A DNA stretch of 64,000 nt, from assembly GCF_044324875.1 (NCBI RefSeq), contig NZ_CP172185.1; one strand, given 5' to 3'. Shown here piece after piece: positions 47,301-50,300 of this stretch (position 1 is the stretch's first letter; every line of letters starts with the position of its first letter). A program made the position numbers. The DNA is from Escherichia coli (lineage in GTDB: Bacteria; Pseudomonadota; Gammaproteobacteria; Enterobacterales; Enterobacteriaceae).

Positions 47301-50300
47301 ATTTTCTGGTGGAACTGGCGCGCCAGTTTGGCCTGGCTTTGCGAAAAGAGCGGTGATGTTTCGCCGTTGAAAAATTTGTTATCGGCGATATCAATCTTCA
47401 ATGAGAAAACGGACATATCCTATCCTTTTGGCCTCTGGAAATAGAGGGCCGACCAGCTGATCGGCCCGAGGGGTTATTTCACGCGTTCTTGCGCTTCTTT
47501 CAGCAGTTGCTCGAGCAGTGCACCTGGTTTGGCGTATTTACGGGACAGGATCATCGCGGCGATGATATAAGGCTTCCAGCTGGCTTCTTTGTAGGTCGCG
47601 ATACGGTATTTTTCGAATACGCCTTCAGTCACTTCACCTTCTTTGCAGGATACGCCGCTGATATCAGCTGGCAGGCAGTGCATGTACAGGGCTTCGCCAT
47701 CACGGGTCAGTTCCATCATCTCTTCAGTACAATGCCAGTCTTTGTGTTGCGTGTTCTGTGCCAGACACTGTTTTTCCAGTGCTTTTAAGCCTTCGTGATC
47801 GTTCGCACGCAGCAATTCAGTACGCTCTTCCATCACTTTGTAAGGTGCCCATGACTTCGGATAAACGATGTCTGCGTCTTTGAAGGCTTCTTCCATGCTG
47901 GTGACCTGACGGAAGCTACCGCCGGAGGCTTTAGCATTGTTTTTAGCGACTTCAACGACATCCGGGATCAGGTCGTAGCCTTCCGGATGGGCCAGGGTGA
48001 CATCCATACCGAAGCGAGTCATCAGACCGATGATGCCTTGTGGTACAGAGAGCGGTTTGCCATAGCTTGGGGAGTAGGCCCAGGTCATGGCGATTTTTTT
48101 ACCTTTCAGGTTTTCCAGTGAACCAAAGTGTTCACGTAACCATGCGAGGTCAGCCATTGACTGAGTCGGGTGGTCAATATCGCATTGCAGGTTCACTAAA
48201 GCCGGACGCTGCGGCAGTACGCCCTGCTTGTAGCCGTCATCAAGTGCAGCGCCAACTTCACGCATATAAGCGTTGCCTGCGCCCAGATACATATCGTCAC
48301 GAATACCGATGGCATCGGCGCAGAAGGAGATCATATTGGCGGTTTCACGCACGGTTTCGCCGTGAGCGATTTGTGATTTGCCTTCGTCGAGATCTTGCTG
48401 TGCGAGGCCGAGCAGGTTAAGCGCGGAAGCATAAGAGAAGCGGGTACGGGTGGAGTTGTCGCGGAATACGGAAATACCTAATCCACTATTAAAGACTTTG
48501 GTTGAGATGTTTTCAGCACGCAGTGCTTTTAATGCTGCGGCAACGTCCAGTACTTGTTTCAGTTCATCTGGCGTCTGTTCCCACGTTAACAAAAAATCTT
48601 TCTCGTGAAGGTGAGAGGTCAGCGAATTGATATCCTTAATCAGCTCATTAACAGTTTTCATCATAAAGTCCCGGTAGTGGAATGACAGGCAAAGAGGTTT
48701 ATTTCACTGTGATTTGCCAAAAGTGATTGGTCTTTTCACAGCTATACCTGGGACTAACAATAACTATGCCAGAATTATCCAAGCGGCTGCAAAAGACTAA
48801 TTTGACGGGTAATGTGTGGGGTTGATCACAAATTGATGCCAGCTTCTGGTTGTTTGTAAAATACGAAAACGTTTGGCTTTTTTTATCGCGTTATTTATTT
48901 GCTGCTAAGTATCAGAAATAAGATAAAGGGGCAGGTTATCCCTCGTCAGTTTGATAAACTCACCGCCGTAATTCTCATATTGATATAGAAATGTGATATC
49001 TCTTCCATAATTTCATTAGAAAGTGATAAAAATCTTATGTTTTTATCAAAGCCAATTTCGTCTGAGTTAATATCATCATGATCTGTGAACCATCAACGTC
49101 TTCAATGATCGACTTTTAAGTAAGTCTGGAAGGTAAAGCTATGGAGCTTGCTACTACGCAGTCAGTACTGATGCAAATTCAACCGACAATTCAGCGTTTT
49201 GCCAGAATGCTTGCCAGCGTTTTGCAGCTTGAGGTTGAGATCGTTGATGAAAACTTGTGTCGCGTCGCCGGAACGGGCGCGTATGGGAAGTTTCTTGGTC
49301 GCCAGTTGAGCGGCAACTCACGCCTGCTCCGCCACGTCCTGGAAACGAAAACTGAAAAAGTTGTGACACAATCTCGCTTCGATCCCCTTTGCGAAGGTTG
49401 CGATAGTAAAGAAAATTGCCGTGAAAAAGCATTTCTGGGTACGCCTGTCATTTTACAGGATCGTTGTGTTGGGGTGATAAGTTTGATTGCCGTTACCCAC
49501 GAGCAACAAGAACATATCAGTGATAATTTACGCGAATTTTCTGATTACGTTCGCCATATATCCACCATTTTTGTTTCGAAACTTCTGGAGGATCAGGGGC
49601 CAGGAGATAACATCAGTAAAATATTCGCGACCATGATCGATAATATGGATCAGGGCGTTTTAGTTGTTGATGACGAAAATCGGGTTCAGTTTGTTAATCA
49701 GACTGCCTTAAAAACACTCGGTGTTGTACAAAATAATATTATTGGGAAACCTATCCGTTTCAGACCATTAACATTTGAGAGTAATTTTACCCATGGACAT
49801 ATGCAGCATATTGTTTCGTGGGACGATAAAAGTGAATTAATCATTGGTCAATTGCATAACATTCAGGGCCGACAATTATTTTTAATGGCGTTTCACCAAT
49901 CGCATACCAGTTTTTCTGTAGCAAATGCACCTGATGAACCGCATATTGAACAATTGGTTGGCGAGTGCCGTGTTATGCGGCAATTAAAACGACTCATTAG
50001 CCGTATTGCACCCAGCCCATCCAGCGTTATGGTGGTTGGTGAAAGCGGCACGGGTAAAGAAGTTGTCGCCCGTGCAATCCATAAGTTGAGCGGAAGACGG
50101 AATAAACCCTTTATTGCTATCAACTGTGCCGCGATTCCGGAGCAGCTTCTGGAGAGCGAACTGTTCGGTTATGTTAAAGGCGCATTTACTGGCGCTTCTG
50201 CCAACGGTAAAACAGGGTTGATTCAGGCGGCGAATACGGGCACGCTGTTTCTCGATGAAATAGGTGATATGCCATTAATGTTGCAGGCTAAATTACTGCG

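What the first reader, a model, noticed from the sequence alone, without database searches (positions are those of the whole stretch)
48665..49140. 15-mer TTCTCATATTGATAT in the ygeW-ygeV intergenic region is repeated upstream of ygfT and (reverse-complemented) upstream of xdhA
The exact 15-mer TTCTCATATTGATAT occurs at 48972..48986 (about 155 bp upstream of ygeV) and again at 23933..23947 (about 230 bp upstream of ygfT), with a shared GTAATT just before it in both copies. Its core CTCATATTGAT occurs reverse-complemented at 54792..54802 (about 210 bp upstream of xdhA, oriented toward xdhA). In all three the motif points in the direction of transcription of the downstream operon. The same region also holds GTGATATC (48993..49000) and GTGATAAA (49023..49030). 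An exact 15-mer shared between two unrelated intergenic regions of one functional gene cluster is very unlikely by chance, so this looks like a shared cis-regulatory element. I do not know which factor binds it.
Basis: seen in the sequence. Interest (0 to 1): 0.7.

Follow-up and report, generated by a model that had tools for sequence, protein, structure and literature searches.

The report
YgeV enhancer sites, purine-breakdown cluster
The repeated 15-mer is real: it is the core of a conserved 13-bp palindrome (TATCA-N3-TGATA) near every sigma-54 promoter of the E. coli anaerobic purine/urate-breakdown cluster, and is most likely the docking site of the cluster's own activator protein, YgeV.

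Summary
TTCTCATATTGATAT occurs exactly at 23933-23947 and 48972-48986, and its core lies reverse-complemented upstream of xdhA.

The 15-mer is one arm-and-spacer of an imperfect palindrome, T[A/C]TCA-N3-TGA[T/G]A. Copies lie 100-235 bp upstream of the sigma-54 promoters of xdhA, ygeW, ygfK and ygfT (all four mapped by published ChIP-seq) and of a sigma-54-like sequence I predict for uacT. A further copy lies 228 bp downstream of the validated sigma-54 promoter inside yqeC.

The palindrome sits at the same positions in nine other enterobacterial genera while its flanks diverge. A matrix trained only on those genera ranks the E. coli copies first in the 64-kb window. It finds nothing above 14 bits in 187 kb of other enteric DNA.

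The same motif stands upstream of sigma-54 promoters beside YgeV homologues in two Firmicutes. Those homologues carry an identical recognition helix.

Best explanation: these are upstream activator (enhancer) sites for the sigma-54 activator YgeV. Binding itself is inferred, not shown.

The motif is not new as a kind. Nie et al. 2019 predicted it for the clostridial activator group 'DioR'. I found no paper assigning it to E. coli YgeV. It is a new member of a known kind, of moderate interest.

The parts
23934..23946 (.).
   Evidence: Exact 15-mer. Scores 20.0 bits with the matrix trained on other genera. Ranks #1 with the matrix built from published clostridial DioR sites. Centre about 170-190 bp upstream of the ygfT sigma-54 site and about 120 bp upstream of the predicted uacT sigma-54 promoter. 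An equivalent site (TCTCAAATTGATT) lies upstream of the uacT orthologue of Pluralibacter.
24112..24128 (+). Sigma-54 binding site of ygfT, TATGCCCGTTTATTGCA (non-canonical -24 element).
   Evidence: Identical to ChIP-seq site OS32 of Bonocora et al. 2015 (PMC4591121). Found in the window by my scan.
23808..23823 (-). Predicted sigma-54 promoter of uacT, TGGCACTCCACGAGCA.
   Evidence: Consensus scan. Pluralibacter uacT has TGGCACCGGATAAGCA at the matching place. Not named in the ChIP-seq paper text I searched, so this is a prediction only.
39304..39316 (.). Perfect palindromic site TATCATTATGATA upstream of ygfK.
   Evidence: 0 mismatches. Top hit in the window at 23.1 bits. Invariant TATCA...TGATAA block in the six-genus alignment A3. 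About 170-180 bp upstream of the ygfK sigma-54 promoter.
39119..39135 (-). Sigma-54 promoter of ygfK, GTGGTGCGATTGTTGCT.
   Evidence: Equals ChIP-seq site OS31. Invariant in alignment A3.
40694..40706 (.). Palindromic site TCTCAATGTGAGA inside the 3' end of yqeC, 161 bp before the yqeB start codon.
   Evidence: 18.6 bits, 4th in the window; #4 with the DioR matrix. Present in all seven genera that have yqeC, with the N3 spacer (a codon) varying. Also present in non-coding DNA upstream of the yqeB-like gene in L001 and L083.
40450..40466 (+). Intragenic sigma-54 promoter in yqeC that drives yqeB, TGAGCACGAACCTTGCA.
   Evidence: Exact match to site IS34, validated by mutation, qRT-PCR and Western blot in Bonocora et al. 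2015. Conserved with 0-2 mismatches and always 228 bp upstream of the palindrome in seven genera.
48973..48985 (.).
   Evidence: 21.8 bits. The TTnTCATnnTGATA block is invariant in the six-genus alignment A1 and in four E. coli lineages. About 200-212 bp upstream of the ygeW sigma-54 promoter and 155 bp upstream of the ygeV start codon.
48944..48956 (.). Weaker second site CGTCAGTTTGATA, 29 bp (centre to centre) from the main one.
   Evidence: C..CA...TGATAAA is invariant in alignment A1. 6.8 bits. A 2-mismatch site was listed at the matching place in L080, L081, L082 and L085.
48756..48772 (-). Sigma-54 promoter of ygeW, CTGGCATAGTTATTGTT (K-12: CTGGCACACTTATTGTT).
   Evidence: Corresponds to ChIP-seq site OS30. 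RpoN binding in this spacer was also found by genomic SELEX (PMC8743547). Invariant core in alignment A1.
54791..54803 (.). xdhA upstream site 1, TATCAATATGAGT.
   Evidence: 14.6 bits. Conserved as TATCATTATGAGT in Citrobacter amalonaticus. Equivalent sites in Atlantibacter and Trabulsiella.
54812..54824 (.). xdhA upstream site 2, AATCAATGTGATA, 21 bp (centre to centre) from site 1.
   Evidence: 15.7 bits. Conserved in C. amalonaticus, Atlantibacter and Trabulsiella, each time 20-21 bp from site 1.
54677..54693 (-). Sigma-54 promoter of xdhA, CTGGCGTAAATCTTGCC.
   Evidence: Equals ChIP-seq site OS29. Conserved in C. amalonaticus, Atlantibacter and Trabulsiella.
49141..50919 (+). ygeV, the sigma-54-dependent activator proposed to bind the palindromes.
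   Evidence: 592 aa. Pfam domains PAS_8, Sigma54_activat, AAA_lid_14 and HTH_8. Walker A GESGTGKE at residue 300 and GAFTGA at 347. Annotated ygeV in K-12 RefSeq. Recognition helix LGIGIATLYRK.

Best explanation
The 15-mer is part of a 13-bp inverted repeat, T[A/C]TCA-N3-TGA[T/G]A, that serves as the upstream activator sequence (enhancer) of the sigma-54-dependent activator YgeV.

Proposed mechanism, following the established behaviour of bacterial enhancer-binding proteins:
1. YgeV binds the palindromes through its C-terminal Fis-type helix-turn-helix.
2. It assembles into an ATPase oligomer.
3. It contacts sigma-54 RNA polymerase, held as a closed complex at the -24/-12 promoters, by DNA looping.
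4. It drives open-complex formation.

This would co-activate xdhABC, ygeWXY-hyuA-yqeA, ygfK-ssnA-ygfM-xdhD, ygfT(S), uacT and yqeB, the anaerobic purine/urate degradation regulon.

Shown here: the motif, its conservation, its specificity, and its position relative to sigma-54 promoters. Inferred: physical binding by YgeV and the need for the sites in activation.
For: **Geometry**
- Each of the five sigma-54 sites mapped by ChIP-seq in this cluster (xdhA, ygeW, ygfK, ygfT, yqeC-internal; PMC4591121) has a palindrome within about 100-260 bp.

**Conservation**
- The palindrome holds the same positions in Enterobacter sp. Bisph1, Kluyvera, Citrobacter amalonaticus, Raoultella, Serratia silvae, Pluralibacter, Atlantibacter, Trabulsiella and Intestinirhabdus.
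- The flanks diverge in those genera.

**Cross-validation and specificity**
- A matrix trained only on non-E. coli sites places five of its six best hits in the window inside the four target intergenic regions; the sixth is upstream of yqeB.
- The chance probability of five of the top six falling there is 6e-8.
- There is no hit of 14 bits or more in 118 kb of other E. coli DNA or in 69 kb of non-cluster flanks from other enterics.

**Link to the regulator**
- ygeV is the only regulator gene adjacent to the sites in every genome examined.
- It has GAFTGA and an HTH_8 domain.
- Among 78 unrelated loci that encode sigma-54 activators, only two carry the YgeV-type recognition helix LGIGIATLYRK: Clostridium MAG L002 and Sedimentibacter L004.
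- Only those two have multiple strong sites: 4 each at 20 bits or more, against 0.02-0.05 expected (Fisher p = 3e-4).
- In L004, and at two of the three sigma-54-like promoters in L002, these sites lie about 105-190 bp upstream of a canonical sigma-54 promoter, next to ygeX/W/Y/ygfK-type genes.

**Literature**
- ygfT expression falls in a ygeV mutant, as cited in PMC10602906.
- Nie et al. 2019 predicted the same motif as the UAS of the clostridial activator group DioR, with the same target genes (PMC6615313, Table S3).
- A matrix built from their published sites ranks the two 15-mer copies #1 and #2 in this window.
Against: - No binding or mutational experiment for YgeV and these sites was found, and none can be run here.
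- The half-sites are close together (conserved TCA and TGA cores 6 bp apart). This is tighter than the spacing I recall for NtrC-type sites.
- The yqeC site lies 228 bp downstream of its promoter, which is atypical for an activator site.
- Most E. coli promoters have one strong site plus only a weak partner.
- ybiY is in the YgeV iModulon, and aegA is needed for urate use. Neither has a site.
- A related clostridial activator group, CdsR2, has a similar published site, and locus L006, whose activator has a different helix, carries a similar pair. The motif class is therefore not strictly unique to YgeV/DioR.
- The uacT sigma-54 promoter is only predicted.
Confidence: 0.8

Rival explanations
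1. The palindrome is a real regulatory site, but it is bound by a factor other than YgeV. Candidates would be a purine- or urate-responsive repressor encoded elsewhere, or a global regulator. YgeV would then act through a different, unrecognised sequence.
For: Binding was not tested. The short 6-bp core spacing resembles, from memory, what some winged-helix repressors such as FadR use. The yqeC site lies downstream of its promoter. The site near ygeV (49071-49083) sits where a repressor could act.
Against: - ygeV is the only regulator gene adjacent to the sites in all genomes examined, in both Enterobacteriaceae and Firmicutes.
- Multiple strong sites track the YgeV-type recognition helix exactly among 78 activator loci.
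- No other conserved block that could be a YgeV site lies at activator distance. The other conserved islands are CRP-like TGTGA sites and the promoters themselves.
- Matches to Fur, FNR, CRP and NarL consensus sequences around the sites are unremarkable. Only Fur was compared with a sampled background: five of the six sites fall within its 95th percentile, and the ygfK site (13 of 19) equals the background maximum.
Confidence: 0.12
2. The motif is an IHF (or other nucleoid-protein) bending site of the kind common at sigma-54 promoters. It looks shared only because such sites are AT-rich and contain WATCAA.
For: Several copies contain TATCAA, the core of the IHF consensus WATCAANNNNTTR. From general knowledge, sigma-54 promoters often use IHF.
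Against: - None of the sites fits the full IHF consensus, and the pattern has no match in any of the four intergenic regions.
- Many orthologous copies read TATCAT or TATCAC.
- The conserved pattern has strict dyad symmetry, which the asymmetric IHF consensus does not.
- The sites lie at -130 to -235, beyond where a bending site would sit between activator and promoter.
Confidence: 0.03
3. The repeat is a chance or duplication artefact with no function.
For: The sequence is short and AT-rich. One exact 12-mer copy sits in the ygeY coding sequence, and I read that copy as chance.
Against: - 3 matches against 0.14 expected.
- With up to 1 mismatch to the palindrome: 7 matches against 1.58 expected, and five of the seven fall in 2.5% of the window.
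- Positional conservation across ten genera with diverged flanks.
- No extended flank similarity between the two copies.
Confidence: 0.02

Closest known systems
DioR upstream activator sequence and regulon of Clostridiales (Nie, Dong and Yang 2019, BMC Genomics 20:565; PMC6615313, Table S3). This is a computational prediction.
   Same: - Same palindrome. Published sites include ATTTATCATAATGATAAGG and TATTATCATTTTGATAATA, with a C. difficile variant AATTCTC...TGAGAATT.
- Same layout: sites mostly 100-250 bp upstream of a sigma-54 promoter.
- Same target genes: dpaL (ygeX), ygeW-ygfK-ssnA-ygeY, yqeC-ygfJ-yqeB-xdhC, xdhABC and a purine permease.
- A matrix built from their sites ranks the E. coli copies #1-4 in this window.
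   Different: - That study covered only Clostridiales and listed the regulon's function as 'Unknown'. E. coli YgeV and Enterobacteriaceae were not part of it.
- YgeV is only 36-39% identical overall to the Firmicute homologues I examined.
- I did not compare YgeV with the named DioR proteins (CBO2889, CD3186, CD2092).
- E. coli has the extra targets ygfT and uacT, and a site placed downstream of the yqeC-internal promoter.
Classical enhancer sites of sigma-54 activators, such as NtrC sites at glnAp2 and NifA or FhlA upstream activator sequences.
   Same: Dyad-symmetric sites about 100-200 bp from a -24/-12 promoter, sometimes paired about two helical turns apart. The cognate activator has GAFTGA and a C-terminal Fis-type HTH and is encoded next to its targets.
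   Different: The sequence is different and the core is much more compact (TCA-N3-TGA). The TGT-N10-12-ACA type is described for FhlA/NifA-like activators in PMC6615313. NtrC's longer inverted repeat is recalled from memory only. No biochemical evidence exists for YgeV.
Downstream activating sequence of Bacillus subtilis rocG (RocR enhancer placed downstream of the gene). Recalled from memory, not checked here.
   Same: It offers a precedent for a sigma-54 activator site working from downstream of the promoter, as the yqeC-embedded site would have to do for the yqeC-internal promoter.
   Different: Different activator, motif and distances. The function of the yqeC site is untested.

Membership tests
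Upstream activator sequence (enhancer) of a sigma-54 enhancer-binding protein | Lies within roughly 80-250 bp of a sigma-54 (-24/-12) promoter. | tested here: met
   Palindrome centres lie roughly 100-235 bp upstream of the xdhA, ygeW, ygfK and ygfT sigma-54 sites, which were mapped by ChIP-seq (PMC4591121), and of a predicted uacT promoter. The yqeC copy is the exception: it lies 228 bp downstream of its promoter.
Upstream activator sequence (enhancer) of a sigma-54 enhancer-binding protein | Dyad symmetry, often in two or more copies. | tested here: met
   Symmetric consensus TTATCA-N3-TGATAA from 28 sites. Paired sites at xdhA (21 bp apart), at ygeW (29 bp apart), and in Firmicute loci (18-19 bp apart).
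Upstream activator sequence (enhancer) of a sigma-54 enhancer-binding protein | A cognate activator with an AAA+ sigma-54 interaction domain (GAFTGA) and a DNA-binding HTH. | tested here: met
   YgeV has GESGTGKE, GAFTGA, and Pfam Sigma54_activat and HTH_8 domains. It is adjacent to the sites in all ten genera.
Upstream activator sequence (enhancer) of a sigma-54 enhancer-binding protein | Physically bound by the activator and required for activation. | not testable with these tools
   Needs EMSA or footprinting, ChIP, and reporter mutagenesis. No such data were found in the searched literature.
DioR regulon / UAS motif (Nie et al. 2019) | Sequence matches the published DioR site consensus. 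| tested here: met
   A matrix built from 19 published DioR sites ranks 23934, 48973, 39304 and 40694 as the four best hits in the 64-kb window.
DioR regulon / UAS motif (Nie et al. 2019) | Target operons are the dpaL/ygeW/ygfK/ssnA/ygeY, yqeB/yqeC, xdhABC and purine permease genes. | tested here: met
   [quoted passage not shown] Compare Table 1 and Table S3 of PMC6615313.
DioR regulon / UAS motif (Nie et al. 2019) | The regulator is an orthologue of the named DioR proteins. | tested here: inconclusive
   YgeV is 36-39% identical over its full length to Firmicute activators next to DioR-type operons (L002, L004) and shares their recognition helix LGIGIATLYRK. The named DioR proteins themselves were not compared.
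IHF binding site | Matches WATCAANNNNTTR. | tested here: not met
   No match in any of the four intergenic regions; the five matches in the window are all elsewhere.
CRP, FNR, Fur or NarL operator | Matches the respective consensus above background. | tested here: not met
   Best matches centred on the sites: CRP 5-7 of 10, FNR 5-9 of 10, Fur 9-13 of 19, NarL 8-10 of 14. A sampled background was computed for Fur only (mean 8.8, 95th percentile 11, maximum 13). Only the ygfK copy (Fur, 13 of 19) and a non-conserved FNR-like sequence overlapping xdhA site 1 (9 of 10) stand out.

The most novel reading that the evidence does not exclude
The whole regulatory module has been kept nearly unchanged between Firmicutes and Enterobacteriaceae: the activator's recognition helix, the palindromic enhancer and the sigma-54 promoters. 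This would imply that the anaerobic purine/urate pathway moved between phyla together with its cis-regulatory wiring.

Within that module, the enterobacterial yqeB promoter would use an enhancer embedded in the yqeC coding sequence, 228 bp downstream of the promoter. In that site the DNA half-sites are conserved while the spacer codon changes the amino acid.
Probability: 0.35. Interest if true: 0.6.

Novelty: new member of a known kind. Interest (0 to 1): 0.45.

Why it matters
YgeV (also named IsrR) is a poorly characterised E. coli regulator. It has been linked to anaerobic uric-acid degradation, a topic of current interest for gut clearance of urate and for gout. It has also been linked to indole-dependent virulence in EHEC and Citrobacter rodentium.

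The papers I could search say that its direct targets are unknown, and that it is an open question whether it regulates the LEE virulence genes directly (PMC9426417).

A defined operator makes several things directly testable:
- It predicts the direct regulon: five or six promoters, all in this cluster, and not ybiY or aegA.
- It gives precise bases to mutate.
- It names an activator for the yqeC-internal sigma-54 promoter, whose physiological link puzzled its discoverers (PMC4591121).
- It lets one scan the LEE and other loci for direct sites.
- It connects E. coli YgeV to the clostridial 'DioR' regulon, whose function was listed as unknown in 2019.

Tried and rejected
**Searches that gave little**
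It gave only one true orthologue (L001). The unrelated loci later served as controls.
- The first homologue search with E. coli YgeV returned only near-identical E. coli proteins. Searching again with the L001 orthologue gave the diverse genera.
- A literature search with match='anywhere' on 'ygev' returned mostly irrelevant hits.
- The first K-12 region fetched for ybiY missed the gene because strain AG100 is offset; a second fetch found it.

**Ideas tested and dropped**
- Fur box: the ygfK copy resembles one, but it only equals the background maximum and the other copies sit at background.
- FNR half-site TTGAT, NarL heptamer TTCTCAT, and CRP: no more than 7 of 10, 10 of 14 and 7 of 10 at the sites, apart from one non-conserved FNR-like sequence at xdhA.
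- IHF: no consensus match in the intergenic regions.
- Segmental duplication: the flanks are not similar.
- A canonical sigma-54 promoter for ygfT: none found. The literature shows a weak non-canonical site instead.
- A sigma-54 promoter for ygeV itself: none found on the + strand between the site and the start codon.
- Sites upstream of ybiY and aegA: none.
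Full report
**1. The observation**

The exact 15-mer TTCTCATATTGATAT is present at 23933-23947 and 48972-48986. Allowing up to two mismatches gives 3 matches against 0.14 expected, and none of 100 shuffles reaches that. The core CTCATATTGAT, and in fact the 12-mer CTCATATTGATA, is also exact on the minus strand at 54791-54802 upstream of xdhA.

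Gene identities were checked against the RefSeq annotation of K-12. The window is the K-12 xdh-yge-ygf cluster read in reverse:

| Gene | Strand | Coordinates |
|---|---|---|
| uacT | - | about 22291-23740 |
| ygfT | + | from 24160/24175 |
| ygfK | - | 35948-39046 |
| yqeC / yqeB | + | 40049-42492 |
| ygeW | - | 47474-48664 |
| ygeV | + | 49141-50919 |
| xdhA | - | 52324-54621 |

The stated distances to ygeV and ygfT are right. The distance to xdhA is about 170 bp, not 210. The 'shared GTAATT' is 2 bp out of register between the two copies. Without gaps, similarity between the copies ends at the borders of the 15-mer, so this is not a duplicated segment.

**2. What the element is**

Reading both strands shows that the 15-mer contains an imperfect inverted repeat, TCTCA-TAT-TGATA. 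Searching the window for TATCANNNTGATA with up to one mismatch gives 7 matches against 1.58 expected. Five of them lie in four intergenic regions that make up 2.5% of the window:
- 23934 (uacT-ygfT)
- 39304 (upstream of ygfK; a perfect palindrome, TATCATTATGATA)
- 48973 and 49071 (ygeW-ygeV)
- 54812 (upstream of xdhA)

**3. Orthologous loci**

One genome scan gave a 69%-identical YgeV orthologue in Enterobacter sp. Bisph1 (L001). A protein search seeded with that orthologue gave many genera. I fetched eight of them:

| Locus | Genus |
|---|---|
| L080 | Kluyvera |
| L081 | Citrobacter amalonaticus |
| L082 | Raoultella |
| L083 | Serratia silvae |
| L084 | Pluralibacter |
| L085 | Atlantibacter |
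| L086 | Trabulsiella |
| L087 | Intestinirhabdus |

Positions of the palindrome (up to one mismatch, except where stated):
- In every locus it sits in the ygeW-ygeV spacer, 140-160 bp from the ygeV start.
- In every locus where that region was captured, it sits upstream of ygfK.
- In the three genera that keep xdhABC, two sites 20-21 bp apart (mostly two mismatches each) precede xdhA.
- In three genera that have an MFS transporter gene in place of xdhABC, TATCACTCTGAGA precedes that gene.
- In Pluralibacter, a two-mismatch site (TCTCAAATTGATT) precedes the uacT orthologue, which is 81% identical to E. coli UacT.

Alignments of the three intergenic regions show the palindrome as an invariant island. 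So are the sigma-54 promoters and CRP-like TGTGA sequences. The DNA between these islands is poorly conserved: mean column identity is 45-70%. Four divergent E. coli lineages are invariant across the main site.

**4. Cross-validation and specificity**

I built a matrix from 28 non-E. coli sites and scanned the window. The best hits were:

| Rank | Position | Bits | Location |
|---|---|---|---|
| 1 | 39304 | 23.1 | upstream of ygfK |
| 2 | 48973 | 21.8 | ygeW-ygeV spacer |
| 3 | 23934 | 20.0 | uacT-ygfT spacer |
| 4 | 40694 | 18.6 | 3' end of yqeC |
| 5 | 54812 | 15.7 | upstream of xdhA |
| 6 | 54791 | 14.6 | upstream of xdhA |

- The probability that five of the top six fall in the four target regions by chance is 6e-8.
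- K-12 gives the same sites.
- In 118 kb of other E. coli DNA the best hit is 13.8 bits. That DNA includes the upstream regions of ybiY and aegA.
- In 69 kb of non-cluster flanks from the other enterics there is nothing at 13 bits or more.

**5. Relation to sigma-54 promoters**

My consensus scan found -24/-12 sequences downstream of the sites. Published ChIP-seq (Bonocora et al. 2015, PMC4591121) lists exactly these:

| Gene | Sequence | ChIP-seq site |
|---|---|---|
| xdhA | CTGGCGTAAATCTTGCC | OS29 |
| ygeW | CTGGCACACTTATTGTT | OS30 |
| ygfK | GTGGTGCGATTGTTGCT | OS31 |
| ygfT | TATGCCCGTTTATTGCA | OS32 |

RpoN binding in the ygeV-ygeW spacer was also seen by genomic SELEX (PMC8743547). 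The palindrome centres lie about 100-235 bp upstream of these promoters. A uacT promoter (TGGCACTCCACGAGCA, 23823..23808) is my prediction only, but it is mirrored in Pluralibacter. The MFS genes of Kluyvera, Raoultella and Intestinirhabdus also have sigma-54 promoters downstream of their sites.

The same paper validated an intragenic sigma-54 promoter inside yqeC that drives yqeB (TGAGCACGAACCTTGCA). It is at 40450-40466 here. The palindrome at 40694 lies 228 bp downstream of it. That arrangement is fixed in all seven genera that have yqeC.

**6. Which protein binds**

YgeV is a bona fide sigma-54 activator. It has Walker A, GAFTGA, and Pfam Sigma54_activat and HTH_8 domains. It is the only regulator gene next to the sites in all genomes examined.

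The 78 unrelated loci with sigma-54 activators served as controls.
- Only L002 (a Clostridium MAG, 39% identity) and L004 (Sedimentibacter hydroxybenzoicus, 36%) encode an activator with the YgeV recognition helix LGIGIATLYRK.
- Only these two have several strong sites: four each at 20 bits or more, against 0.02-0.05 expected from order-2 Markov models of each locus.
- The other 76 loci have at most one hit at 17 bits or more (Fisher p = 3e-4).
- In L004, three sites stand about 135-285 bp upstream of TGGCACAAGTTTTGCT. That promoter precedes a ygeX-ygeW-ygeY-ygfK-yqeA-ssnA operon.
- In L002, a pair stands 105-120 bp upstream of a sigma-54 promoter before ygeY.

**7. Prior knowledge**

[quoted passage not shown] It cites reduced ygfT expression in a ygeV mutant (PMC10602906, PMC12132413).
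- The IsrR paper states that direct targets are an open question (PMC9426417).
- I found no paper giving a YgeV binding site.
- However, Nie et al. 2019 (PMC6615313) predicted computationally an activator group 'DioR' in Clostridiales. Its targets are dpaL, ygeW-ygfK-ssnA-ygeY, yqeC-ygfJ-yqeB-xdhC, xdhABC and pbuX. Its listed UAS sites include ATTTATCATAATGATAAGG and TATTATCATTTTGATAATA.
- A matrix made from 19 of their sites ranks the two 15-mer copies first and second in this window, ygfK third and yqeC fourth.

The motif is therefore a known kind, and the E. coli/enterobacterial YgeV sites are new members.

**8. Rivals**

- IHF: the consensus has no match in the target regions.
- Fur, FNR, CRP, NarL: matches around the sites are unremarkable; only Fur was compared with a sampled background. 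Two exceptions stand out: the ygfK copy (Fur, 13 of 19, equal to the background maximum) and a non-conserved FNR-like sequence overlapping xdhA site 1.
- A different, unlinked factor cannot be excluded without biochemistry. It is disfavoured by the link between recognition helix and motif, and by the absence of any other conserved candidate site.

**9. Verdict**

The best explanation is a YgeV enhancer. I put confidence at about 0.8 for YgeV as the binder, and higher for the element being functional at all. Binding, and the requirement for the sites in activation, remain inferred.

Noticed in passing
window 40450-40466 and 40694-40706: The palindrome TCTCAATGTGAGA lies inside the 3' end of yqeC, exactly 228 bp downstream of the published, validated intragenic sigma-54 promoter that drives yqeB. 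Both elements, and the spacing, are kept in seven genera. The N3 spacer is a codon that changes the amino acid (N, C, S or F). Where yqeC is absent (L001, L083), the same palindrome sits in non-coding DNA 47-61 bp downstream of a similar promoter-like sequence, TCAGCATA(A/G)ATATTGCA. An activator site downstream of its promoter is unusual.
   Followed up: partly
window 39198-39213, 48815-48830, 48992-49007: CRP-like sites lie between the palindromes and the sigma-54 promoters: a perfect TGTGAATGAACTCACA upstream of ygfK, and TGTGGGGTTGATCACA upstream of ygeW. A 2025 paper mentions a 'native Crp-binding site' in the ygeV-ygeW spacer. Overall, CRP-like matches are not enriched in the window (32 against 28.7 expected).
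   Followed up: partly
window 47128-47140: A zero-mismatch palindrome, TATCAAGATGATA, lies inside the ygeX (dpaL) coding sequence (14.3 bits). It is kept exactly in C. amalonaticus (L081:8001). In Raoultella and Pluralibacter the TCA core is broken, so the conservation may come only from the protein code.
   Followed up: partly
window 45913-45924: A fourth exact copy of the 12-mer CTCATATTGATA lies inside ygeY. It scores 11.7 bits. No comparable site turned up inside ygeY in the other genera, though the equivalent position was not aligned. Probably chance.
   Followed up: partly
window 49071-49083: TATCATCATGATC lies 58 bp before the ygeV start codon. Across genera only the left part, GTA(A/G)TATCA, is invariant. 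That looks more like a -10 element (TAnTAT) of the ygeV promoter than a full palindromic site.
   Followed up: partly
L080:11813-11981, L082:11837-11995, L087:11794-12170: In Kluyvera, Raoultella and Intestinirhabdus, xdhABC is replaced downstream of ygeV by an MFS transporter gene. That gene is preceded by TATCACTCTGAGA and a good sigma-54 promoter (for example TGGCACCTTTCTTGCC). It is a likely extra regulon member absent from E. coli.
   Followed up: partly
window 54783-54796: GTGATACGTATCAA matches the FNR consensus TTGAT-N4-ATCAA at 9 of 10 positions and overlaps xdhA site 1. It is not conserved in C. amalonaticus.
   Followed up: partly
window 48756-48772 versus K-12 (L088): The ygeW sigma-54 promoter of this strain reads CTGGCATAGTTATTGTT. 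K-12, ST131 and DA61218 read CTGGCACACTTATTGTT, so two positions differ inside the -24/-12 region. Both versions have GT rather than GC at -12.
   Followed up: no
L006:8033-8064 and 8175-8190: An uncultured Clostridium activator with a different helix (LGISRATLYRK) is followed by a pair, TCTCAAAATGATA and TCTCATTTTGAGA, 19 bp apart and about 125-140 bp upstream of a sigma-54 promoter. This closely resembles the published CdsR2 site of C. difficile (CGTCTCAAAATGATATAGAATCTCATTTTGAGACT). A related activator group therefore uses a similar motif.
   Followed up: no
L091:12885-13014 (ybiY upstream) and L090:16703-16907 (aegA-narQ), K-12: ybiY is a member of the YgeV iModulon, and aegA is required for urate use. 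Neither has a palindrome upstream (best hits in those loci are 8 bits or less). Their link to YgeV is probably indirect.
   Followed up: yes
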